Positions 6,860 to 18,827 of a stretch of DNA of 64,000 bases are shown piece after piece. The translations under genes were made by a program, and so were the position numbers. The DNA is from a virus, in IMG/VR virus record IMGVR_UViG_3300020438_004021, positions 64,001-128,000 of that record. One strand, written 5' to 3'. Each line of letters begins with the position of its first letter. The first letter of the stretch is position 1. The notes under the pieces are model-generated. The model worked only from the letters and a program-made list of their open reading frames with translations, ran no database searches and was not told the DNA's origin.

Positions 6860-6985
6860 TTAAGATAAGACAATTTTTCCAATTATTAAACCAGTGCAGA
6901 ACCCCATGATTATAACTACGATTCCGGCTGGAGTTTGTGATAATTGTATCTTTCTATCTAACCATTCTTTCAATTTTGCGTTCAC
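6860..6985 (-). CDS. Small membrane protein (41 aa; not in the ORF track)
   Basis: GAGG RBS then GTG; reads MNAKLKEWLDRKIQLSQTPAGIVVIIMGFCTGLIIGKIVLS*; fills the gap between the protease and resolvase genes. Confidence 0.55.
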   Translation of the reverse strand: MNAKLKEWLDRKIQLSQTPAGIVVIIMGFCTGLIIGKIVLS

Positions 6986-7712
6986 TGTCAATTTCCTCTC
7001 TAATCCAATTATAGACGACATCCACTCTTATAGCGGAGTTTTCATATATCATATCTCTATACATGCTGAAGGTCGAGATTATTCCTACCACTACGAACCT
7101 GTTATCGATTAGCATGAATACCGGACCACCAGAATCACCAAACCATACAGAACCTCCCATCGGAAGCATCTTCATTCCAGTGGGTTCGCTCTCTAGAGTT
7201 CCATAATAGAATAGTGTATTCAACTCGCTTCTCTTTTTAAATCCTCTAGAGTATCCAACTGATATCACCGGTGTGCCTTTTCTGACATCTAATAGTGGTT
7301 TAGAATTGATTCCAGATGGGAATATTCCACGAACGTAGGTATCTAGAACGATGACTGCCACATCATATCCCACCTTCATGTCAGCATTGTACTGCGGATG
7401 TTTGGTAGCACATTTGATGCTATACATTTCGTCACCAAATTGTACATAGGACTCGTCATTGGAAATGCAATGAGCAGCCGTAAGCACTATATCTTGCTCG
7501 ATAAGGACTACCGAGCATTTGGGTCTCATGTCTCCAGATAGAAGTCTGCCTACCGATGGATAGTCATCTTCCGTTATGGTTATAAAACCTTCTATACTCG
7601 GAACTATTTCTTTTTTAGGGGGTGGACTCTCTGCACTGGGTTTCACCGTTTTGGCAGCGCATCCCGTAAAGCATAATAAAAGGGCTGATAGATAAACTAT
7701 CTTTCTTAACAT
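6954..7712 (-). CDS. Trypsin-like (S1) serine protease, lipoprotein
   Basis: Catalytic triad motifs LTAAHC, YDVAV, GDSGGP; N-terminal signal with lipobox FTGC. Confidence 0.88.
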   Translation of the reverse strand: MLRKIVYLSALLLCFTGCAAKTVKPSAESPPPKKEIVPSIEGFITITEDDYPSVGRLLSGDMRPKCSVVLIEQDIVLTAAHCISNDESYVQFGDEMYSIKCATKHPQYNADMKVGYDVAVIVLDTYVRGIFPSGINSKPLLDVRKGTPVISVGYSRGFKKRSELNTLFYYGTLESEPTGMKMLPMGGSVWFGDSGGPVFMLIDNRFVVVGIISTFSMYRDMIYENSAIRVDVVYNWIREEIDSERKIERMVR

Positions 7713-7719
7713 GTCCTCT

Positions 7720-8622
7720 TTATTTATAAGAAAAAACGGCTTCCGTGGAAGTTAGGTCGTCTACCTCTTCCTTCCTAAGTCTTCTTCCTACTATCCAAAA
7801 CAACGTCTTCTCCTTGGAGACATCGATATTTTCCCTCATCCATTTATGTGCTTTTCCTTCATAGATGTCGTCTATGAGTTCTCCGTTCACTTCTTCCCAT
7901 ATGGATTTAGAGTAGGCATCCTTAGTCAGGTGTATCTCATACTCTGGGAATTCCAGCACCTCTTGGGGAAAATTCTCATACCTAAACCTGTCTAAGTGTT
8001 GATTAATTGACTTGGTCCTATCGCAGAAGGCTATACCTATGACCCTCTTGACCTTTTTATTAAACTTATGTAGACCCCTGATAATGCCCGCGAACTGGAT
8101 TCCACTACCAACAGGTATTACTAGGTTGTCTAGTTCGTCTGGGATATTTTCTACCTGGTTGGTGACCCCATCGAATATAGCCTCTGGGTTACTCTCGAGG
8201 CTGATCGCGAACTTGATTAATTTATAATTATTATTCGCTATAATCTTCTTCTTAGCACCTGCGTCTATTGCGGTAGTCATACCGTGACCGGCTACGATTC
8301 GTATTTCCGAACCATAGTGCCTGGTCAACCGCATAATATGATGTTTATATAGGGTGTCTTCTTTACAACCACCGACGGCTACTACACACTTAATCCCATA
8401 CTCTTTCGCTACTTTTGCTATAATGGCACTTTGTGGGCTATGGACCGAACTTGCGGTTACAACCCCACCATTGTGGTTCTCGATTATGTCATCTCTGATT
8501 TCATCGAATAGTTGTACTGCCTGCCTTACCTTACCACCATTGATATGGTTGATTCCGTATGGGGCATATAAATCATCCCTCTTGTAGTATACGTCGCCAT
8601 GTTTTTGGATAGGGGTCATCAT
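7720..8622 (-). CDS. PLP-dependent enzyme, fold type II (ACC deaminase / D-cysteine desulfhydrase-like)
   Basis: KRDDL...GGKVRQ (PLP lysine), SVHSPQ and the VPVGSG phosphate-binding loop. Confidence 0.8.
   Translation of the reverse strand: MMTPIQKHGDVYYKRDDLYAPYGINHINGGKVRQAVQLFDEIRDDIIENHNGGVVTASSVHSPQSAIIAKVAKEYGIKCVVAVGGCKEDTLYKHHIMRLTRHYGSEIRIVAGHGMTTAIDAGAKKKIIANNNYKLIKFAISLESNPEAIFDGVTNQVENIPDELDNLVIPVGSGIQFAGIIRGLHKFNKKVKRVIGIAFCDRTKSINQHLDRFRYENFPQEVLEFPEYEIHLTKDAYSKSIWEEVNGELIDDIYEGKAHKWMRENIDVSKEKTLFWIVGRRLRKEEVDDLTSTEAVFSYK
7721..7728 (-). promoter_or_regulatory. T4-type late promoter TATAAATA
   Basis: Exact motif on the minus strand just upstream of the protease gene. Confidence 0.7.
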
Positions 8623-8659
8623 CTTGAGTATTTATTCTGGATGCCCAAAAGGTACAATA

Positions 8660-8781
8660 CCCCCCTTCCTGATATCACGAGGGCATATACCACTCCTTGT
8701 ATATGCCCCCAAGGATATACCACCCATTGTATATGCCCTTCTCGGGTATCTCTGAACCCCCTTCCTGATATCAGGAAGGGG
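8660..8781. repeat. Palindrome/direct-repeat cluster between divergent transcription units
   Basis: CCCCTTCCTGATATC at 8662-8676; two copies of ATATACCAC-N4-TGTATATGCCC within 8685-8738; perfect 24-bp palindrome CCCCTTCCTGATATCAGGAAGGGG at 8758-8781. Confidence 0.85.
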
Positions 8782-8818
8782 TATGACGATCGTATGTCAG
8801 CTGGCATCAATAAAGGGC

Positions 8819-8847
8819 TTGACAGAAGAGCTCCGGTATGATCTAAT
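8819..8847 (+). promoter_or_regulatory. Early sigma70-like promoter TTGACA-N17-TCTAAT
   Basis: Exact 17-nt spacing with an extended TG; same architecture recurs at 10298, 13455, 14433, 15527 and 21856. Confidence 0.8.
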
Positions 8848-8906
8848 GGGGGTTCAGGAATTGGGGAAAGACCCCCTTTGAAACCACCATACGGAGACCC
8901 AAAAAT

Positions 8907-10289
8907 ATGGCAACCAAGCAATCGAGACAAAATAGAGCTGACTTCATCAAAGCGATGAAGGAGGCAGGACTTACTTCACCTGTCACCCGTGAACAGGTCA
9001 GGGAAGTCTGCGATTCCACGGGCATCTATGCGGTTCCGCCATCATGGATTACGTACGATGCTTCCCGCAAGACCGGTGCTCTCGGCGAGTACCACATCCC
9101 AGAACTCTCCGAAGGTGCTACCACAACCGCACCCGCCAAGGAGGCAGCACCCATGACTGCTACTATCGTCACCAATAAGGTGAAAACCGCTGATGTCTGC
9201 GATACCACTATGGCACTCGCAATGACTGGTGGTGAGAGCGAGACTCTCGTCCCAGAGCGAATCAGCACTTACGTTCCTTGGGGTCACTTCAAGGACATCG
9301 AGCAAATCATTCGTGCGAAGATGTTCTACCCTTGCTTCATCACTGGTCTGTCCGGCAACGGCAAGACCACGATGGTTGACCAGGTTTGTGCGAAGCTCAA
9401 GCGAGAGCTGTTCCGCATCAACATCACTACTCAGACCGATGAGGACGATTTGCTTGGTGGTTTCCGTCTCATCAACGGTGAGACCAAGTGGTGTGATGGT
9501 CCTGTCGTGAAGGCGATGAAGCAGGGTGGAATTCTTCTCCTCGACGAAATCGACCTTGCGTCACATGCAATCATGTGCCTGCAGCCGGTTCTGGAAGGCA
9601 AGGGTGTCTTCCTCAAGAAGATTGGTCAATGGGTCAAGCCCGCAGCCGGTTTCCAGATTTTCGCTACTGCCAATACCAAGGGTAAGGGCAGCGATGATGG
9701 TCGGTTCATCGGGACCAACGTTCTCAATGAGGCATTCCTCGACCGATTCTCAGTTTGCTTTGAGCAGGCATACGCTCCCAAGAAGGTGGAGCAGAAGATT
9801 CTCACCAAGGCGATGCAATCGCTCGACTGCGAGGACAAGGACTTCACCAAGAAGCTGGTTGACTGGGCAGACATGATTCGTAAGTGCTTCTACGAGGATG
9901 CGGTTGATGAAATCATCACCACACGCCGTCTGGTCAACGTTGCTACGGCATTCTCCATCTTTGGTGACCGTGCCAAGGCAGTTGAGATGGCAGTCACCCG
10001 ATTCGATGACTCCACCAAGGAGGCCTTCCTCACGATGTACGGCAAGATTGATGCCGACACCATCGTGGGCGAGGAGGAGATGGAGGTGGTCGACTACGAA
10101 ACCGCAGAACGTTTCGACATTGACGTGTCTTTTGACGACAAGGACGAAGCGAAGAGACTGGGTGCTAGGTGGGACGTTCCCAAGAAGCAGTGGTATGTCG
10201 AAGGCGACAAGTACCGCAAGAATCCCGAAAGATGGGTAAGATGGAATCCGGTAGCCGTTTCTACCTCCTCCACTCCCGCACCGTTTTGA
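8907..10289 (+). CDS. CobS/MoxR-like AAA+ ATPase with C-terminal DUF5710-like domain
   Basis: Walker A GLSGNGKT, Walker B LLLDEID, ATANTKGKG, NEAFLDRF; C-terminal VSFDDKDEAKRLGARWD..KKQWYV. Confidence 0.85.
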   Translation: MATKQSRQNRADFIKAMKEAGLTSPVTREQVREVCDSTGIYAVPPSWITYDASRKTGALGEYHIPELSEGATTTAPAKEAAPMTATIVTNKVKTADVCDTTMALAMTGGESETLVPERISTYVPWGHFKDIEQIIRAKMFYPCFITGLSGNGKTTMVDQVCAKLKRELFRINITTQTDEDDLLGGFRLINGETKWCDGPVVKAMKQGGILLLDEIDLASHAIMCLQPVLEGKGVFLKKIGQWVKPAAGFQIFATANTKGKGSDDGRFIGTNVLNEAFLDRFSVCFEQAYAPKKVEQKILTKAMQSLDCEDKDFTKKLVDWADMIRKCFYEDAVDEIITTRRLVNVATAFSIFGDRAKAVEMAVTRFDDSTKEAFLTMYGKIDADTIVGEEEMEVVDYETAERFDIDVSFDDKDEAKRLGARWDVPKKQWYVEGDKYRKNPERWVRWNPVAVSTSSTPAPF

Positions 10290-10297
10290 ACGAAGCC

Positions 10298-10326
10298 TTG
10301 ACAGAAGTAAGGAGCCATGATCTAAT
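10298..10326 (+). promoter_or_regulatory. Early promoter TTGACA-N17-TCTAAT
   Basis: TTGACA gaagtaaggagccatga TCTAAT. Confidence 0.8.
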
Positions 10327-10333
10327 GGGTGCT

Positions 10334-10471
10334 ATGAAAGAATTTTTGATGTGGTGTGAGGATAAAGGCTACTATGAGTGGTCTGACCTCAAAGACGACT
10401 ACGAGTGGGTCGGAGGTAAGACTCATTCAGAAGCAATGAGTGAATGGATGAAAGAGGAGGTTGGAGGATGA
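10334..10471 (+). CDS. Small early hypothetical protein (45 aa)
   Basis: ATG lies 7 nt after the -10 box; its stop overlaps the next ATG. Confidence 0.55.
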   Translation: MKEFLMWCEDKGYYEWSDLKDDYEWVGGKTHSEAMSEWMKEEVGG

Positions 10472-10722
10472 TAGTGCTTGATGATTTTGATACCCAAATC
10501 CAGTGCGAGGATTATTGGTATGATGACTACGATGGCATCCCCACAGATGACATCATCGATGACGATGATGAGGACGTTCTCGATGATACTGATGAACACG
10601 ACGCTGTTTGGGATGACGATGATGAAGATGGCTTCGTAAGCACTCTGATTGACGGAAATGGGATTACCGCCGAAGGTTATAACTACCTTCATGAACTTGA
10701 TACCAATGGTTACTTTGTTTGA
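10468..10722 (+). CDS. Highly acidic hypothetical protein
   Basis: Asp-rich ORF with ATGA overlap and GGAGG RBS. Confidence 0.6.
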   Translation: MIVLDDFDTQIQCEDYWYDDYDGIPTDDIIDDDDEDVLDDTDEHDAVWDDDDEDGFVSTLIDGNGITAEGYNYLHELDTNGYFV

Positions 10723-10736
10723 AGGAGAAAATCAAA

Positions 10737-11060
10737 ATGAATAGTAACACACCTAACCCAGAATGGGCATATGACAACCTCACCGAATCACAGAAGCGTT
10801 ATGTGGAAATGATTCTTACACACGGACCAGACCTAGGTGTAGACTGCACCAAGGGTTCATTTTGTCGTGCCGAGCTGCGAGCGGTATCTCGCTCGTTTAA
10901 GACAAATGATGACATTCCTAACTGGATTGTTAAGACCAAGGAACGCAGAGCAGATGTGGGTGTCTATTACGTGCCTGAAGTTGCAGAGCACCAAACCCAT
11001 GTCCTAGGTGAGCAACCATCAGATGTCGAGGTTGAGACAATGGAAGAAGTAGCCGTCTAG
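10737..11060 (+). CDS. Hypothetical early protein
   Basis: AAGGAG RBS upstream of the ATG at 10737. Confidence 0.65.
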   Translation: MNSNTPNPEWAYDNLTESQKRYVEMILTHGPDLGVDCTKGSFCRAELRAVSRSFKTNDDIPNWIVKTKERRADVGVYYVPEVAEHQTHVLGEQPSDVEVETMEEVAV

Positions 11061-11072
11061 TACGGTGGTTAA

Positions 11073-11145
11073 AGGCTGGTAGCTCAGCGGTTAGAGCACC
11101 CGACTCATAATCGGTTAGTCGTCGGTTCGAATCCGACCCAGCCTA
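11073..11145 (+). tRNA. tRNA with CAT anticodon (probably Ile2/lysidine type; Met not excluded)
   Basis: Acceptor AGGCTGG/CCAGCCT, D-arm GCTC/GAGC, anticodon loop CTCATAA, T-loop TTCGAAT; C29-G30-A31 as in tRNA-Ile2; no encoded CCA. Confidence 0.9.
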
Positions 11146-11158
11146 TTTGGAGAACAAA

Positions 11159-11344
11159 ATGGAAATCACACAAGAGCAGGCAAATAAGTTTTTGAACTGG
11201 TTACGAGAAAGTGGTAAGACTAACATGTTTGGTGCTACCCCCTACCTGCAGAAAAAGTTTAAAATCAACAGGTATGATGCACAAAGGTTTCTTATCAACT
11301 GGATGGACATGGACAATTTCGACAAGGACAAGACCCAAGGATGA
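11159..11344 (+). CDS. Conserved small phage protein
   Basis: LRESGKTNMFGATPYL motif seen in many phage hypotheticals; GGAG RBS. Confidence 0.7.
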   Translation: MEITQEQANKFLNWLRESGKTNMFGATPYLQKKFKINRYDAQRFLINWMDMDNFDKDKTQG

Positions 11345-11694
11345 ACACAGACCACCCATATTCCAACCATGCTGGTCATAAGGTATGGTCCCTGATTAAG
11401 GATGGGGCCGTTTATGTTTTCAGACAGTATTATGAAGGTGGAAAGATTGAGATATGTGAGCCGGATGGTGAGGTACTCAAATTGACTGCTGAGCATGCTA
11501 GGGTGGTCTGGGAAACCCTAATCAGCTACGGATTCGTGGTCCAGAATGCATGCCATCACTGGGGTATGGATGAATTCAACAAGATGAAGAGAGAAGAAGA
11601 AATGAAATCTGTCTACCAACTTGGTAATAGGAAAGACAGAAGGAAAAAAGAATGGTTCGACAAGGTACTCAAAAATTATGCACTGGAGGCATGA
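11341..11694 (+). CDS. Hypothetical protein
   Basis: ATGA overlap within the early gene cluster. Confidence 0.6.
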   Translation: MNTDHPYSNHAGHKVWSLIKDGAVYVFRQYYEGGKIEICEPDGEVLKLTAEHARVVWETLISYGFVVQNACHHWGMDEFNKMKREEEMKSVYQLGNRKDRRKKEWFDKVLKNYALEA

Positions 11695-11695
11695 A

Positions 11696-11959
11696 ATGAA
11701 CGACAACCACCCCACAACTACTTTTGTCCTTAGTGACGCAATCGATGCACTTCGTACCTCTGAGGAGAGGATGCAGGACCCCTTTGCACCAATCGAGCAG
11801 ATGGTCGGAATGTTGCAGGCAACTCTGGCAATCATCATGAGGCTTACCAGCAGTTACGACGAGTCGAACTTCACTGGTGAAGAGATTGATTTGGTACACA
11901 GGGTAACTACATTGGCATCTGAAATCACGAACGAAATGTTCACCGGAGAGAACCCATGA
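11696..11959 (+). CDS. Hypothetical helical protein
   Basis: GGAGG RBS; tightly packed with neighbours. Confidence 0.6.
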   Translation: MNDNHPTTTFVLSDAIDALRTSEERMQDPFAPIEQMVGMLQATLAIIMRLTSSYDESNFTGEEIDLVHRVTTLASEITNEMFTGENP

Positions 11960-12231
11960 ATAAATCGATAATCGAAATTGAATACGATGAGTCCTACAAC
12001 ACAGAGAAGAAAAGAGTCGTGGACCCAAAGAACAGTAAGAGATGGCATTATAAAGACATAAAGGTTGACGATCCCAAGGCATGGGAAATCATCACAGTGG
12101 AAAATAATGTGACCTTGGTTCCCGGTTACCGGCTCAATAAGAAGCAAGTAGAGGTACTTTGTAAGAACACTAGGTATGACGTGAGAATTGGGATGCCGGG
12201 TCAGTTTCGTGTCAGCAATAGCAGGTATTGA
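11956..12231 (+). CDS. Hypothetical protein
   Basis: ATGA overlap; GGAG RBS. Confidence 0.6.
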   Translation: MNKSIIEIEYDESYNTEKKRVVDPKNSKRWHYKDIKVDDPKAWEIITVENNVTLVPGYRLNKKQVEVLCKNTRYDVRIGMPGQFRVSNSRY

Positions 12232-12548
12232 TTATGAAAATCATCGTTGAAGAAGAGTATGGTTATCGTTACTGGGTGTGGGAGCTTAAGGCATCCTCTA
12301 GGGTTGGTGTTGAAAGACACTTTAGTAAGACGACAGGTGCATCGGGAGACGATTATTGGTATTGTACTGGAAAACCAGAGGACCACTTCACAATCGGCGA
12401 GTGGAAGCAGGTGGAGTTTCCAGAATACAAGGTCATGGTTGATAAAGATGATTATGATGCGGCTGCTCACATTCATCAGAACGATGACAGTTGGATTAGT
12501 TTTAGGGACGACCCAGTACACTGTATAGACACAGGAGAGGACGTTTAA
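12228..12548 (+). CDS. Hypothetical protein
   Basis: Tightly packed ORF. Confidence 0.55.
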   Translation: MIMKIIVEEEYGYRYWVWELKASSRVGVERHFSKTTGASGDDYWYCTGKPEDHFTIGEWKQVEFPEYKVMVDKDDYDAAAHIHQNDDSWISFRDDPVHCIDTGEDV

Positions 12549-13129
12549 TGGCATTTAAAGTATTTGACGATTTCATCGATGAAGGATACCGAGACTTAGT
12601 AGAGAATATGATGCTTAACACGCACTGGATGTATCAAAAGCATATGGATTATGACAATGATAAGGTTCTGGTAGATGGTGCTGACTCCTATTCTCAGTTT
12701 TCAAGTGTCATTTTTCACCACGGTTCCGTTAGTAACAACCACCTTCATGGCATCTTACTTCCAATGGTTAGTAAGGTGATTAATGAAGAGCTTAAAGGTT
12801 ACGACCTAGCGAGGTCCAGAGCGATACTTCAGGTTCCTAATGTAGCGAGACCCGAAATGTATGTGCCTCACATAGACTTCGATAGTAGATACATTATGAG
12901 CGTAATTTATTATGCTTGTGACTCTGACGGGGATACCGTACTCTTCGAAGAATCTGGATTTGACGTTAGTATGGAGGATAGAGGAGAACATAGTTTCAAA
13001 GAGGTGGATAGGGTCTCCCCCAAGAAGGGCAGACTGGTGATTTTTCCCTCAGACGAGTACCATTGTGGTTCTCCTCCCTCCAAGTCCAACAGAATGTTGG
13101 TTAATTTTAATTTTGAAAGGAATGCATGA
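12548..13129 (+). CDS. 2OG-Fe(II) oxygenase family protein
   Basis: HxD (PHID), YYACDSDGDT, PKKGRLVIF, distal His (YHC) and Arg (NRM). Confidence 0.8.
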   Translation: MAFKVFDDFIDEGYRDLVENMMLNTHWMYQKHMDYDNDKVLVDGADSYSQFSSVIFHHGSVSNNHLHGILLPMVSKVINEELKGYDLARSRAILQVPNVARPEMYVPHIDFDSRYIMSVIYYACDSDGDTVLFEESGFDVSMEDRGEHSFKEVDRVSPKKGRLVIFPSDEYHCGSPPSKSNRMLVNFNFERNA

Positions 13130-14338: not shown

Positions 14339-14411
14339 GGGAGTGTAGCTCAGTCGGTAGAGCATCGGTCTTTTAAACCGGTGGTCGTGGGTTCGAGTCC
14401 CACCGCTCCCA
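14339..14411 (+). tRNA. tRNA-Lys (TTT)
   Basis: Acceptor GGGAGTG/CGCTCCC, anticodon loop CTTTTAA, T-loop TTCGAGT. Confidence 0.93.
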
Positions 14412-14432
14412 CTTGGGATTGACAATGAATAC

Positions 14433-16635: not shown

Positions 16636-17709
16636 ATGATTGAGTCTGGTAAGGTGAATTTTCTTATTGATGGACAGTGGGGAAGCACTGGCAAGGGCAA
16701 ACTTGCCGGTTACATGTATAGCAGATTTAAGAATCTGAACATGGCAATCAGTGATAATATGCCAAATGCGGGGCATACCTTTACACGCGATGGTAAGAAC
16801 TTCATCTTTAAGGCCCTTCCTACCGGAGTTTTGTTCGATGAAGTGACATCTTTAATCGGTCCACAGGCAGTGATGGGTGAAGAGCAGTTCCAATATGAAA
16901 TGGAGATGGTGAAGAACGAAATAGGTCACTATCCCAAGGTAATCATCCACCCAATGGCAACCGTTGTAACCGCCAGTGACAAAGATGCTGAAGCAGGAAT
17001 CGTCAGCAAAATGGCAAGTACGGGTCAGGGTTCTTGTTCCGCTACCGTTAAGAAGATGTGGAGACGAGGAGAGGCAAACCTCGCCAAGAACAGCAAGGTG
17101 TTTGATGAATTCGTCGGTGATACCCATTCCTTCCTTCATGAAGGACTTAAGAAGGGTGGTGCTGCACTTTCGGAAGGTAGTCAAGGTTTTGACCTTTCAA
17201 TGAATTGCGGACATGCCTACCCACACACGACGTCACGCGATTGCTTGATCGGGAGAATGATGGACAATGCAGGATGCCCAGTCAAGTCTGTAGGTAGCAT
17301 AATCGCTTGTCTAAGGACACTGCCAATTCGCGTTGGAAGCACTGAGAACACGAGCGGTCCTTACTACGACGACCAGAATGAAATCGACTGGAAGACGGTA
17401 TCCGATATGTGTGGTCATGATGTAGAAGAAAGAACTACAGTGACCCAGAGAGTTCGTAGAGTATTTACATTCTCGGAAGAACAGACTAGGAAGTTCTGCG
17501 AATTTGTTCGTCCGGATTATGCATTCCTTAACTTCGTTAACTACTATAAGGAAGAGGGAGACCGACTCAATGCTGTCTCTGAAGTAGCGACAATTCTGGG
17601 TGAGTACGGTTGCGACCTTACACTACTAGGTACTGGTGCTGGACTAGACGATATGGAAATGACCAGCAACGAGCAAATCCTAGGCAAGCAGGAAACACTT
17701 TTTGCATGA
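16636..17709 (+). CDS. purZ: PurZ-type adenylosuccinate-synthetase homologue (N6-succino-2-amino-dAMP synthase)
   Basis: DGQWGSTGKG (Ser where PurA has the catalytic Asp of GDEGKG), PNAGHT, EGSQGF.LS, YPHTTSRD, RTLPIRV, TTVT..VRRVFTFS, FLNFVNY (PurA has TKLD); 357 aa. Confidence 0.82.
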   Translation: MIESGKVNFLIDGQWGSTGKGKLAGYMYSRFKNLNMAISDNMPNAGHTFTRDGKNFIFKALPTGVLFDEVTSLIGPQAVMGEEQFQYEMEMVKNEIGHYPKVIIHPMATVVTASDKDAEAGIVSKMASTGQGSCSATVKKMWRRGEANLAKNSKVFDEFVGDTHSFLHEGLKKGGAALSEGSQGFDLSMNCGHAYPHTTSRDCLIGRMMDNAGCPVKSVGSIIACLRTLPIRVGSTENTSGPYYDDQNEIDWKTVSDMCGHDVEERTTVTQRVRRVFTFSEEQTRKFCEFVRPDYAFLNFVNYYKEEGDRLNAVSEVATILGEYGCDLTLLGTGAGLDDMEMTSNEQILGKQETLFA

Positions 17710-18260
17710 TTCAGCACTGCGTAATAGGACAGGCTGGTAGTGGTAAGTCCACATTCATAGAGAAGAAATTCCCTAGGGACGAACACATCTTCTTTGATAC
17801 GGGTAGCATGCTTAGAAGCATGTTTACCTGTCTCAAGGGGGAACAGACTAGCAAGAACGTTTGGGATTTTGCAAATCCGTTGGTATATAGTGTTTACAAG
17901 CAGTGCTGCACTGTTTCAGAGAACACCGGTTATGAGTTCATAACTGACGGTTTCCCTAGGAACTCATCTCAAGTTAAGAATATGCATATGTTTTTGACTT
18001 CTCTACCCCATAGCAATTCTATCATATTCCATATGCTGGACATTTCAGAAGAAGAGCAGATTAGGAGGATAGAGAAGAGAAATGGAAAGATGAGCGACTA
18101 TCATATTGATAGGATATCACAGTCTAGGAGAGACTTCGAGTCTGTATTGGATGAACTAGACAGGATTATGAGTAGCAGCACTGCGAACAGAACCTTAATA
18201 GAGATAAAGTGGTATAAGCAAGAAGATGGTGATTTCGTTCTGGACAGAAGTTATAAATAG
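17706..18260 (+). CDS. Adenylate-kinase-family nucleoside monophosphate kinase
   Basis: P-loop GQAGSGKST, DTGSMLR (cf. STGDLLR), DGFPRNSSQ; ATG at 17706 overlaps the purZ stop (ATGA). Confidence 0.8.
   Translation: MIQHCVIGQAGSGKSTFIEKKFPRDEHIFFDTGSMLRSMFTCLKGEQTSKNVWDFANPLVYSVYKQCCTVSENTGYEFITDGFPRNSSQVKNMHMFLTSLPHSNSIIFHMLDISEEEQIRRIEKRNGKMSDYHIDRISQSRRDFESVLDELDRIMSSSTANRTLIEIKWYKQEDGDFVLDRSYK
18252..18259 (+). promoter_or_regulatory. Late promoter TATAAATA
   Basis: Exact motif upstream of the 18276 ORF. Confidence 0.65.
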
Positions 18261-18275
18261 TCAGGAGATTTACCT

Positions 18276-18827
18276 ATGGCATCATTCAACTATGAAATTC
18301 CAGACGAATACTTAGAAAATGCATCCGACTTCGGGTTTACTACGGTAGACTCCGATGCTGTAGAACAACAAGAAAGAGATGTAGCCGAAGAAGTAGCGGG
18401 TGAAATATCATCAAATCTTATTGGTCAGATTAGCACCAAGATTAGCGGTCTAGAAGGAAAAATCAATTCTGTCCTTCTTAAAATGCAAGATGAAACAGAT
18501 GAAGACAATGTAGCAGGTGAAATAAATCTGGTTAGGATAGAAGAGAAGATAGATAAGATTCTTGCTATGGAAAATGAAGAACTTGCCAGTAGCATACAAG
18601 CACAAGGTGAGAGCATCCGTGCAGTCATAGATGAAGTAGAAGAGAGAAAAAGCACACTAGAAGACCAATACCTAGATAAAATGAAGGAAATTGAAAAACT
18701 GGTCTTACCTCTATTGGTTAATCTGACCAAGAATCCAGAAAGAGAGTACCTCTTCTGGCCTGATAGGTCTGAAAAAGTCAATAAGCAGATAGGAAAAGTC
18801 CTTTCTATTACAAGAAATGCCGAATAA
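18276..18827 (+). CDS. Conserved acidic coiled-coil protein
   Basis: DFGFTTVD...ILPLLVNLTKNPEREYLFWPDR-type motif seen in T4-like hypotheticals. Confidence 0.65.
   Translation: MASFNYEIPDEYLENASDFGFTTVDSDAVEQQERDVAEEVAGEISSNLIGQISTKISGLEGKINSVLLKMQDETDEDNVAGEINLVRIEEKIDKILAMENEELASSIQAQGESIRAVIDEVEERKSTLEDQYLDKMKEIEKLVLPLLVNLTKNPEREYLFWPDRSEKVNKQIGKVLSITRNAE

What the first reader, a model, noticed from the sequence alone, without database searches (positions are those of the whole stretch)
17706..18260. Adenylate-kinase-family gene coupled to purZ: possible dedicated dZMP kinase
Seen: the ATG overlaps the purZ stop (ATGA). The P-loop GQAGSGKST and DGFPRxxxQ are AK-family motifs, but the NMP-binding segment (DTGSMLRSMFTCLKG...) is divergent and the LID is short. 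Established: the described Z pathway borrows host PurB and guanylate kinase after PurZ. Inference: this phage may supply its own kinase for dZMP, adding a new component to the pathway.
Basis: partly seen in the sequence, partly recalled or inferred. Interest (0 to 1): 0.75.

Follow-up and report, generated by a model that had tools for sequence, protein, structure and literature searches.

The report
Kinase gene welded to phage purZ
A small adenylate-kinase-like gene sits directly against purZ, the gene that starts synthesis of the unusual DNA base Z, in several unrelated phage lineages, so it is probably a phage-supplied kinase for the Z nucleotide, a step so far credited to the host.

Summary
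Window 17706-18260 (+) encodes a 184-aa adenylate-kinase-fold protein ("AKL"). Its ATG overlaps the purZ stop (ATGA). It keeps the P-loop, the AMP-site Arg, DGFPR and the base-reading Gln, has a short LID and a remodelled NMP-binding segment.

The neighbour is PurZ by sequence: closest to phiVC8 PurZ, with Ser at the PurA-Asp13 position.

The window belongs to a T4-like marine myovirus.
- In that lineage every evaluable AKL locus has purZ directly upstream, but the region is syntenic, so this is one lineage.
- In the 80 best IMG/VR PurZ loci, 24 carry an AK-like ORF abutting purZ.
- Twelve of the 24 have non-syntenic flanks.
- 52 of the other 56 show the classical purZ-mazZ/datZ arrangement.
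- AKL-linked PurZs form a deep subclade without detectable DatZ, including two near-complete genomes.
- The T4-like lineage also encodes PurB.

The papers I could read assign all post-PurZ steps to host enzymes.

Best reading: a phage dZMP kinase, confidence 0.55. No biochemistry exists, and the 2-amino contact could not be modelled. I class it as a new variant of a known kind, of fairly high interest.

The parts
16636..17709 (+). purZ (357 aa), succino-amino-deoxyadenylate synthase. It forms the upstream half of the two-gene module.
   Evidence: Best solved relative is phiVC8 PurZ (6FM1 and related entries, E 6.8e-55). S-2L PurZ follows at 2.3e-29, archaeal PurA at 8e-24 and PurZ0 7VF6 at 3.5e-20. 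NCBIfam amino_Aden_PurZ is the best family at 211.7 bits, below its 300-bit cut-off. phrog_1211 scores 4.7e-61. GQWGSTGKG carries Ser where PurA has Asp13. The equivalents of VpPurZ T262, F295 and Y298 are present, and F12 is replaced by W (alignment, residues named).
17706..18260 (+). AKL: a 184-aa adenylate-kinase-family NMP kinase with a short LID. Proposed dZMP kinase.
   Evidence: It is the only AK-family ORF in the 136-kb record.
17706..17709 (+). ATGA start/stop overlap between purZ and AKL, implying translational coupling.
   Evidence: The same 4-nt overlap (ATGA 18 times, GTGA 3 times) occurs in 21 of the 25 unique loci where both ends can be read. No terminator-like site lies between the genes.
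17727..17753 (+). P-loop GQAGSGKST, residues 8-16.
   Evidence: Invariant in 28 of 28 family members. K14 aligns with E. coli Adk K13.
17793..17888 (+). Remodelled NMP-binding segment, residues 30-61. It contains R37 and the family-specific N51, W53, A56, P58, V60 and Y61.
   Evidence: R37 aligns with Adk R36, and T32 with Adk T31, though most family members have V there. N51, W53, P58 and Y61 are invariant in the T4-like family. An NPNRW/F motif recurs in the L081-L086 group.
17946..17972 (+). DGFPRNSSQ, residues 81-89.
   Evidence: D81, R85 and Q89 align with E. coli Adk D84, R88 and Q92. P84, R85 and Q89 are invariant in all 14 PurZ-adjacent kinases aligned together with Adk.
18066..18128 (+). 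Short LID region, residues 121-141, with invariant R121, R125, Y132, R136 and R141.
   Evidence: R121 and R125 align with Adk R119 and R123. R136 and R141 are invariant, but hhalign did not align them to Adk R156 or R167.

Best explanation
AKL is a phage-encoded nucleoside-monophosphate kinase of the adenylate-kinase fold. It is co-translated with PurZ, and its physiological role is to phosphorylate 2-amino-2'-deoxyadenylate (dZMP) to dZDP, using ATP or possibly dATP as donor.

In this T4-like marine myovirus the proposed route is: dGMP to dSMP by PurZ (window 16636-17709), dSMP to dZMP by a phage PurB (own genome C1:2188-3642, outside the window), dZMP to dZDP by AKL, then dZTP by a host NDP kinase.

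Shown: the fold, the intact phosphotransfer residues, the AK-type base-reading Gln, purifying selection, and tight conserved linkage to purZ in several phage backbones.

Inferred: the acceptor is dZMP rather than (d)AMP, any discrimination against dAMP, and the identity of the donor.
For: 1. Active kinase. K14, R37, D81, R85, Q89, R121 and R125 align with E. coli Adk K13, R36, D84, R88, Q92, R119 and R123, and all are invariant in 28 of 28 family members. The model has the AK fold at Z 14.9. dN/dS is 0.03-0.19.

2. Acceptor type. From recall, the R+4 Gln (Adk Q92) reads N1/N6 of adenine, and UMP/CMP kinases carry Asn there. Q89 is invariant in all 14 PurZ-adjacent kinases aligned. That fits a 6-aminopurine such as A or Z.

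3. Linkage within the lineage. Ten of 10 IMG/VR loci and 23 of 23 evaluable metagenome loci have purZ directly upstream. Twenty-one of 25 unique loci show the (A/G)TGA overlap. Seven of 7 evaluable close PurZ loci carry AKL.

4. Linkage beyond the lineage. In the 80 best of 188 IMG/VR PurZ relatives, all 24 AK-like ORFs found among 2,666 ORFs abut purZ on the same strand. Twelve of them (L074-L079, L081-L086) share none of the window's flanking genes. L137 and L138 carry the kinase upstream of purZ. All AKL-linked PurZs whose N-terminus is present have the catalytic-site Ser.

5. Tree. AKL-linked PurZs need only 4 label changes, against a shuffled mean of 18.4 and 0 of 500 shuffles as low. Nineteen of them, plus one unevaluable row, sit on one side of the midpoint root.

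6. Phyletic pattern. tblastn of AKL finds nothing in 50,697 phage records. Of those records, 193 have PurZ and hundreds are marine T4-like phages.

7. Pathway context. A phage PurB is present (TIGR00928, 331.5 bits against a cut-off of 326.2). It is also present in the two other large records of the lineage. PurB is rare in phages, at 27 of 50,697 records. No phage guanylate kinase was found, and there is no other AK-family ORF.

8. The step is vacant in print. The papers read assign dSMP to dZMP to dZTP to host enzymes.
Against: - There is no biochemical or structural evidence on the substrate. Q89 fits AMP and dAMP as well as dZMP.
- The 2-amino contact could not be examined, because model coordinates are not exposed.
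- Published work reports that host guanylate kinase handles dZMP, so a phage kinase is not strictly needed. Fifty-four of the 78 evaluable PurZ loci do without one.
- The adjacency may trace back to only 3-4 events. The tree is a quick one with a midpoint root, and the key branch has SH-aLRT 94, which is unstarred.
- The family-specific N51/W53 motif is not conserved across all PurZ-linked kinases.
- hhalign did not find equivalents of Adk R156 and R167.
- Whether these phage genomes actually contain Z is untested.
Confidence: 0.55

Rival explanations
1. AKL is a broad-specificity phage dNMP kinase, a functional analogue of T4 gp1 or the T5 and T7 dNMP kinases. It would feed all or several dNMPs from degraded host DNA, including dGMP and dZMP, into the phage pool. 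dZMP would be one substrate among several.
For: The host phage is T4-like. AKL is the only NMP-kinase-like ORF in the 136-kb record. Weak partial PHROG matches to thymidylate and guanylate kinase families were seen, at 8.9e-5 and 1.6e-3.
Against: The AK-type Gln (Q89) is invariant, and from recall it is selective for 6-aminopurines. A general dNMP kinase would not be expected to track purZ so strictly. It is absent from hundreds of purZ-less marine T4-like phages.
Confidence: 0.15
2. AKL is an ordinary AMP (or dAMP) kinase kept as an auxiliary metabolic gene. It would regenerate ATP from the ADP that PurZ produces, or buffer the adenylate pool, with no special relation to Z nucleotides.
For: The closest known family is adenylate kinase. 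The AMP-site residues R37, R85 and Q89 are retained. PurZ of this type uses ATP, since the VpPurZ F295 and Y298 equivalents are present.
Against: Every host already has an essential Adk (established knowledge). All NCBIfam adk models score far below their cut-offs, the best being 38.6 bits against 168. The NMP-binding segment is remodelled and T31 is not conserved. Phosphorylating dAMP would work against A-exclusion in a Z phage. The family exists only next to purZ.
Confidence: 0.15
3. AKL takes part in adenine exclusion rather than Z supply. It could use dATP or dADP as phosphate donor, draining the dA pool, and so substitute functionally for the missing DatZ/MazZ.
For: In the AKL-linked subclade, 0 of 22 loci show DatZ or MazZ within 4 kb, while 52 of the 56 loci without an AK-like ORF do. 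The DatZ family PF12917 is absent from two near-complete AKL-type genomes (G005 at 100%, G010 at 98%), while 3 of 3 positive controls gave a match. AKL occupies the slot held by mazZ/datZ in phiVC8 and BUCT555.
Against: Phosphotransfer from dATP yields dADP, which NDP kinase recharges, so there is no net sink. L137 and L138 have both an AK-like gene and DatZ. Several AKL loci carry a Dut-like gene (L078, L079, L086) that could do the clearing instead.
Confidence: 0.08
4. AKL is not a nucleotide kinase. It could be a P-loop kinase for another substrate, or a non-catalytic partner of PurZ.
For: The P-loop GxxGSGKST is of the generic type. Sub-threshold or marginal matches to AAA_17 and AAA_33 were seen. 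Most non-T4 members fall below the Pfam ADK cut-off, with 1 of 10 above it.
Against: The DGFPR...Q motif and the AK fold are retained throughout. The catalytic Lys and Arg residues are invariant.
Confidence: 0.07

Closest known systems
Adenylate kinase, short-LID type (AK1-like; Pfam PF00406)
   Same: Fold (Z 14.4-14.9 to AK1 and bacterial AKs). P-loop Lys, R36, D84, R88, Q92, R119 and R123 equivalents. Short LID.
   Different: Only 16-21% identity. All NCBIfam adk models score far below their cut-offs. The NMP-binding segment is remodelled, with family-specific N51, W53, P58 and Y61. In the model the C-terminus ends in a beta-hairpin (E163-173, E176-183). The gene is phage-borne and found only beside purZ.
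UMP-CMP kinases (e.g. PDB 1TEV, 2UKD)
   Same: Short-LID architecture and similar structural scores.
   Different: From recall, these carry Asn at the R+4 base-reading position. AKL has the AK-type Gln (Q89).
Host guanylate kinase, the enzyme reported to phosphorylate dZMP in the described pathway
   Same: The proposed reaction, dZMP to dZDP (for the published assignment).
   Different: An unrelated NMP-kinase family. AKL has no PF00625 match, and the phage record has none. Host-encoded rather than phage-encoded.
T4 gp1 dNMP kinase (phosphorylates hm-dCMP, dGMP and dTMP); comparison from recall
   Same: The logic is the same: a T4-type phage supplies the kinase for its own non-canonical nucleotide.
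   Different: A different family, and not compared by sequence here. gp1 has broad specificity and is not fused in an operon with the base-modifying enzyme.
Classical Z-cluster (purZ-mazZ-datZ with DpoZ) of phiVC8, S-2L and SH-Ab 15497-type phages
   Same: purZ is the core gene. The accessory gene sits immediately downstream on the same strand.
   Different: Here the downstream slot holds a kinase. No DatZ or DpoZ was detected, and the replicase is a T4-type family-B polymerase. In the T4-like lineage a PurB is added.

Membership tests
Adenylate kinase superfamily (Pfam ADK PF00406) | Score above the Pfam gathering cut-off | tested here: met
   33.1 bits against 26.8, E 7.5e-8. Of 10 non-T4 PurZ-adjacent relatives, only 1 exceeds the cut-off.
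Adenylate kinase superfamily (Pfam ADK PF00406) | Three-layer CORE fold with NMP-binding and LID segments | tested here: met
   AF2 model at pLDDT 89.1. VIA Z 14.9, 168 residues aligned, rmsd 3.7 to AKs; all 50 listed rows are AK or UMP-CMP kinases.
Adenylate kinase superfamily (Pfam ADK PF00406) | P-loop Lys, NMP-site Arg (R36, R88), Mg/Asp (D84), base-reading Gln (Q92) | tested here: met
   K14, R37, R85, D81 and Q89 by hhalign to E. coli Adk. All are invariant in 28 of 28 members.
Adenylate kinase superfamily (Pfam ADK PF00406) | LID and catalytic arginines R123, R156 and R167 | tested here: inconclusive
   R125 aligns with R123. Invariant R136 and R141 are candidates for the other two, but the alignment stops at residue 126.
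Housekeeping Adk orthologue (NCBIfam adk equivalogs, TIGR01351) | Score above the curated cut-off | tested here: not met
   Best score is 38.6 bits against a cut-off of 168. All 16 or more adk models score far below their cut-offs.
Housekeeping Adk orthologue | AMP-site Thr31 and the canonical NMP-binding helix pair | tested here: not met
   T32 in this protein, but Val in at least 90% of the family. A 4-residue gap and discordant alignments appear in this segment.
Guanylate kinase (PF00625) | Family profile match | tested here: not met
   No PF00625 hit for AKL at E up to 1. None in the phage record, and the control gave a match in 11 of 14 genomes.
dZMP kinase (functional class) | Phosphorylates dZMP; contact to the 2-amino group | not testable with these tools
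Only genomic association is available.
PurZ (for the coupled neighbour) | Ser replacing PurA Asp13, plus the residues that accommodate the dGMP 2-amino group (VpPurZ S14, F12, T262) | tested here: met
   S17 and the TTVT Thr are present, and F12 is replaced by W15 (alignment; residues as named in the paper section read). All 23 AKL-linked PurZs whose N-terminus is present have GS[TCE]GKG.
PurZ (for the coupled neighbour) | NCBIfam amino_Aden_PurZ curated cut-off | tested here: not met
   211.7 bits against 300. It is still the best-scoring family, and the closest PDB relatives are PurZ enzymes.
Classical Z-cluster | DatZ (HD-type dATPase; PF12917, PF13023) | tested here: not met
   No match in the own record, in G001 or G002, or by tblastn with phiVC8 DatZ. 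The search finds DatZ in 3 of 3 positive controls. All three lineage records are only 70-75% complete.
Classical Z-cluster | MazZ (DUF550, PF04447) | tested here: inconclusive
   No match, but the same search also fails on phiVC8 and BUCT555, where the gene is annotated. tblastn with both proteins gave nothing below E 0.14.
Classical Z-cluster | DpoZ (family-A polymerase) | tested here: not met
   No tblastn match to phiVC8 DpoZ. The record encodes a family-B polymerase at C1:27293-29863.

The most novel reading that the evidence does not exclude
There is a second, so far undescribed architecture for making Z-DNA. A deep PurZ subclade is obligatorily paired with its own AK-family kinase that recognises the 2-amino group, and it does without DatZ and DpoZ. 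In T4-like marine myoviruses the module is completed by a phage PurB, giving a host-independent dGMP to dZDP line feeding a family-B polymerase. The kinase step, selective for Z over A or drawing on dATP as donor, would then be part of how adenine is kept out.
Probability: 0.25. Interest if true: 0.85.

Novelty: new variant of a known kind. Interest (0 to 1): 0.72.

Why it matters
The published Z-genome pathway stops being phage-encoded after PurZ. The later steps, PurB, an NMP kinase and NDK, are credited to the host.

A phage kinase bound to purZ in about 30% of the best 80 IMG/VR PurZ loci would be a new pathway component, and it marks a distinct DatZ-less branch of Z phages. That branch includes widespread T4-like marine myoviruses, which have not been described as Z phages in the papers I could search.

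Practically, a dZMP-selective kinase, with the accompanying PurB, is an obvious part to add to purZ/mazZ/datZ plasmids. Those plasmids currently reach only partial Z substitution in E. coli.

Most members fall below Pfam's ADK cut-off. That may explain why a Pfam-based association study would miss them.

Tried and rejected
- tblastn of AKL and of an outgroup AK-like protein, P0046, against 50,697 phage records gave no match. megablast of the region also gave no match.
- A single-protein scan of IMG/VR with AKL peptides found nothing. The alignment-based scan worked.
- The alignment of outgroup kinases was too divergent for a collection scan. A P0046 single-protein scan found nothing.
- The genome-contig scan with A1 gave no answer three times. 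Occurrence in cellular genomes or prophages is therefore untested.
- The four distant metagenome hits (L045-L048, 25-32% identity) are outside the family and have no purZ nearby. L047 has the ORF sizes and order I would expect of a bacterial secY-adk-map row; that is my reading of ORF lengths only. I did not count them for or against.
- The Dut-like protein at own genome C1:26323-26916 resembles ordinary phage dUTPases at 34-38% identity, from phiM12, ACP17 and others. I rejected it as evidence for a DutZ-type dATPase.
- PF04447 searches are uninformative because the positive control failed.
- The ESM Atlas returned only generic 'adenylate kinase family' clusters.
- Promoter and terminator scans were at chance level.
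- RNA libraries: nine 100%-identical contig pieces occur in four runs of two studies. Two 151-nt pieces bridge the purZ/AKL junction. The tool warns that DNA can be present in such libraries, so I treat this as no more than a hint of expression. Stretches without cover say nothing.
- Complex prediction was not used. I do not claim that PurZ and AKL bind.
- One paper search, 'PurZ' plus 'kinase' with word_start matching, was swamped by the surname Purzner.
Full report
**Observation.** Window 17706-18260 (+) is an open frame of 184 codons. Its ATG overlaps the TGA of the upstream gene 16636-17709, read as gcATGAtt. The protein carries GQAGSGKST at residues 8-16 and DGFPRNSSQ at residues 81-89. 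Pfam places it in ADK (PF00406, 33.1 bits, cut-off 26.8), with weaker AAA_17 and AAA_33 matches. All NCBIfam adenylate-kinase models match far below their cut-offs, the best being 38.6 bits against 168. An AlphaFold2 model built on 28 homologues has mean pLDDT 89.1. Foldseek and VIA-align return only adenylate and UMP-CMP kinases, with a best Z of 14.9, 168 residues aligned and rmsd 3.7. The LID is a short loop, and the NMP-binding stretch is the least confident and least alignable part.

**The neighbour.** The upstream protein is closest to the solved PurZ of phiVC8 (E 6.8e-55). S-2L PurZ follows at 2.3e-29, archaeal PurA at 8e-24 and PurZ0 at 3.5e-20. Its best NCBIfam family is amino_Aden_PurZ at 211.7 bits, under the 300-bit cut-off. 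A bioRxiv preprint, whose section 8 I read, names VpPurZ S14, F12 and T262 as the residues that accommodate the 2-amino group, and F295 and Y298 as ATP-site residues. In the alignment the window's protein has Ser, Thr, Phe and Tyr at four of these positions and Trp in place of F12. I accept it as a PurZ by sequence. Its activity is not tested.

**The phage.** The window is bases 64001-128000 of a 136,240-bp IMG/VR record estimated to be 75% complete. It is a T4-like marine myovirus.
- It encodes gp32, baseplate proteins, gp5 and gp53, gp33, gp45 and gp44 clamp proteins, gp46/47-like proteins and RNase H, UvsX and gp41 helicase, and a family-B polymerase.
- Its gp32 is about 53-56% identical to those of cyanomyophages, Pelagibacter phage HTVC008M and uncultured marine viruses.
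- Near-identical DNA occurs in 14 DNA runs, though all are flagged as possible sources of this assembly.

**A real, constrained kinase.** A word-indexed search found 39 homologues, all metagenomic. In an alignment of 28 of them, 39 columns are invariant. hhalign to E. coli Adk maps the following residues.

| AKL residue | E. coli Adk residue |
|---|---|
| K14 | K13 |
| T32 | T31 |
| R37 | R36 |
| D81 | D84 |
| R85 | R88 |
| Q89 | Q92 |
| R121 | R119 |
| R125 | R123 |

All of these except T32 are invariant in the family. T32 is Val in most members. Pairwise dN/dS is 0.03-0.19 in the 21 listed pairs with 75-94% identity and finite dS. One near-identical pair gave 0.43 at dS 0.026, and two further pairs had dS too saturated to compute. 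An exhaustive profile search of 1.84 billion representatives found only three at E up to 1e-30 (283, 260 and 207 bits). Scores then drop to 92 bits, so this is a tight family within a looser set of short AK-like proteins.

**Linkage to purZ inside the lineage.**
- All 10 IMG/VR loci with an AKL have purZ immediately upstream.
- Of 31 metagenome loci, 27 belong to the family at 44% identity or more. Twenty-three of those have purZ directly upstream. The other four have fewer than 160 bases of upstream DNA and cannot be judged.
- The remaining four loci are distant, at 25-32% identity, with no purZ nearby. One of them (L047) has the ORF layout I would expect of a bacterial secY-adk row.
- Among 27 unique complete AKL genes, 25 have a readable purZ stop. 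Twenty-one of these show the 4-nt (A/G)TGA overlap, two overlap by 8 nt, one has a 6-nt gap, and one (L043) looks broken.

The caveat is that the whole neighbourhood is syntenic across these loci: two small ORFs, then purZ, AKL, an optional acidic ORF, a PD-(D/E)XK exonuclease, then gp33 and gp32 further on. This is therefore one lineage and not 33 independent observations.

**Linkage beyond the lineage. This is the key result.** I scanned IMG/VR with a PurZ alignment that included phiVC8 and BUCT555 PurZ. The scan found 188 relatives and kept the best 80. A local HMM built from diverse AK-like proteins then found 24 hits among the 2,666 ORFs of those 80 loci. Every hit abuts purZ on the same strand.
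- Ten hits are from the T4-like lineage.
- Twelve (L074-L079, L081-L086) belong to PurZs only 36-48% identical to the window's. They share none of the window's flanking genes.
- Among those twelve, L078, L079 and L086 have a Dut-like gene after the kinase. L081-L084 have a family-A polymerase upstream.
- Two (L137, L138) carry the kinase just upstream of purZ.
- Of the 56 loci without an AK-like ORF, 52 show the classical arrangement, with MazZ-like and/or DatZ-like matches downstream of purZ. The four exceptions are L073 and L106, which are cut by contig ends, and L095 and L115.
- DatZ or MazZ matches occur in 0 of the 22 downstream-type AKL loci, and in both L137 and L138.

A quick maximum-likelihood PurZ tree has 72 distinct rows and a midpoint root, and the careful search was not finished. 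It puts 19 AKL-linked PurZs, plus the unevaluable L106, on one side of the root (SH-aLRT 94, not starred). The AKL label needs 4 changes against a shuffled mean of 18.4, with 0 of 500 shuffles as low. All AKL-linked PurZs with an intact N-terminus carry the catalytic-site Ser. In most of them the kinase ORF overlaps or abuts the purZ end.

The non-T4 kinases keep G13, K14, P84, R85 and Q89. The L081-L086 group also keeps an NPNR(W/F)D motif that resembles the N51-x-W53 signature of the T4-like family. Most of them score below Pfam's ADK cut-off, with 1 of 10 above it.

**What else the phage carries.**
- Outside the window, at C1:2188-3642, it encodes an adenylosuccinate lyase (TIGR00928 purB, 331.5 bits against a cut-off of 326.2). 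The gene lies between the gp47-like and gp46-like genes.
- The two other large records of the lineage also have a purB: G002 at 340 bits and G001 at 284 bits. Two small fragments, 27% and 13% complete, do not.
- PurB homologues occur in only 27 of 50,697 phage records, none of them marine T4-like.
- PurB is not part of the wider module. Of 11 other PurZ records, only one has it: G007, 262 kb, with purB far from purZ and possibly on host DNA. The complete AKL-type genomes G005 and G010 lack it.
- DatZ families are absent from the own record, from G001 and G002, and from G005, G010, G007 and G008. Three positive controls gave a match.
- DpoZ and DatZ are also absent by tblastn.
- MazZ is unresolved, because the family search fails on its positive controls.
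- No guanylate kinase and no second AK-like ORF is present.

**Mechanism.** The most economical reading is that AKL phosphorylates dZMP. The catalytic set is intact. From recall, the R+4 Gln is the feature that makes AKs read a 6-aminopurine, and UMP/CMP kinases have Asn there. Z keeps N1 and N6 and adds a 2-amino group, which the remodelled NMP-binding segment could accommodate.

The gene is co-translated with the enzyme that commits dGMP to the Z branch. In the T4-like lineage the intervening lyase is phage-encoded too. The logic parallels T4 supplying gp1 for hm-dCMP, again from recall.

What is shown is fold, conservation and linkage. The substrate, any selectivity against dAMP and the donor are all inferred. 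I put this reading at 0.55.

The rivals are:
- a broad dNMP kinase (0.15);
- a plain AMP/dAMP kinase kept as an auxiliary gene (0.15);
- a role in adenine exclusion that substitutes for DatZ (0.08);
- a non-nucleotide or non-catalytic role (0.07).

**Literature.** I read the abstract and sections 8, 9 and 12 of bioRxiv 10.1101/2025.10.22.683976, plus passages found by term search. It assigns the post-PurZ steps to host PurB and GMP kinase, and its main text has no mention of ADK, PF00406, AAA_17 or AAA_33. Its list of 116 associated domains is in a figure and supplement that I could not see.

I read the outline, sections 24 and 25, and passages of NAR 2026 (PMC12884076). It states that dSMP to dZMP to dZTP is carried out by bacterial host enzymes. 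The word 'kinase' does not occur in it.

A passage of Nat Commun 2025 (PMC12783734) calls PurB bacterial. Nat Commun 2021 (PMC8065100) has no occurrence of kinase, PurB or dZMP.

The following searches returned nothing describing a phage kinase or PurB tied to PurZ:
- PurZ + kinase + dZMP;
- PurZ + adenylate kinase;
- diaminopurine + phage + adenylate kinase;
- PurZ + T4-like;
- PurZ + guanylate kinase;
- PurZ + adenylosuccinate lyase;
- 2-aminoadenine + phage + kinase + PurZ.

The 2021 Science papers and the PurZ0 paper are not in the searchable library, so the claim of novelty holds only for what I could search.

**Verdict.** The protein is a new variant of a known kind, an AK-family kinase recruited into the Z pathway. 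It marks an undescribed purZ-kinase module, and in this phage a purZ-kinase-purB set.

Noticed in passing
own genome G000:C1:2188-3642 (outside the window; locus L013:2188-3642): A phage-encoded adenylosuccinate lyase (PurB; TIGR00928, 331.5 bits, above the cut-off) lies between the gp47-like and gp46-like genes. It is also present in the two other large records of the lineage, and it is rare in phages (27 of 50,697 records).
   Followed up: yes
own genome G000:C1:26323-26916 (L014:6323-6916): A 197-aa dUTPase-family protein with an N-terminal extension of about 70 residues lies two genes upstream of the family-B DNA polymerase. Its nearest phage relatives are ordinary dUTPases at 34-38% identity. 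Whether it acts on dATP or dGTP like DutZ is open. Dut-like genes also follow the kinase in L078, L079 and L086.
   Followed up: partly
L137 and L138, 3334-3969: An AK-like P-loop ORF of 211 aa lies immediately upstream of purZ in a locus that also has DatZ downstream. The kinase and DatZ are therefore not strictly exclusive.
   Followed up: partly
L076 (record G006) and L077 (record G007): The same purZ-kinase locus sits in a record that IMG/VR classes as a provirus (93.6 kb) and in a 262-kb record that also holds a purB about 140 kb away. A Z-pathway module in integrated DNA would be odd. It may be host-flanked assembly.
   Followed up: no
L095 (370-kb record with terminal repeats) and L115 (142-kb record): These PurZ homologues come from very large phage records. 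No AK-like, DatZ-like or MazZ-like gene lies within 4 kb.
   Followed up: no
window 18276-18827: A conserved acidic 183-aa ORF of no known family (no PHROG match) lies directly after AKL in most T4-like loci. It is missing in L002-L005 and L007, where AKL is followed at once by the exonuclease gene.
   Followed up: partly
own genome G000:C1:16354-25676: A block of sugar-nucleotide and glycan genes: Polysacc_synt_2, three epimerase/dehydratases, a HAD hydrolase, a nucleotidyl transferase, a family-10 and a family-2 glycosyltransferase, and a methyltransferase. It lies inside the replication-gene region of a T4-like phage.
   Followed up: no
own genome G000:C1:34082-35943: A glutamine-synthetase-like gene (365 aa) lies next to thyX.
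   Followed up: no
window 6954-13129: A trypsin-like protease, a PLP-dependent enzyme, a CobS-like AAA_5 ATPase with DUF5710, and a 2OG-Fe(II) oxygenase. These are accessory genes of the kind seen in marine T4-like phages.
   Followed up: no
window 14339-14412: A tRNA-Lys (anticodon TTT) on the + strand.
   Followed up: yes
tool behaviour: The genome search with PF04447 (DUF550/MazZ) finds nothing even in phiVC8 and BUCT555, where the gene is annotated. Its negatives should not be used.
   Followed up: yes
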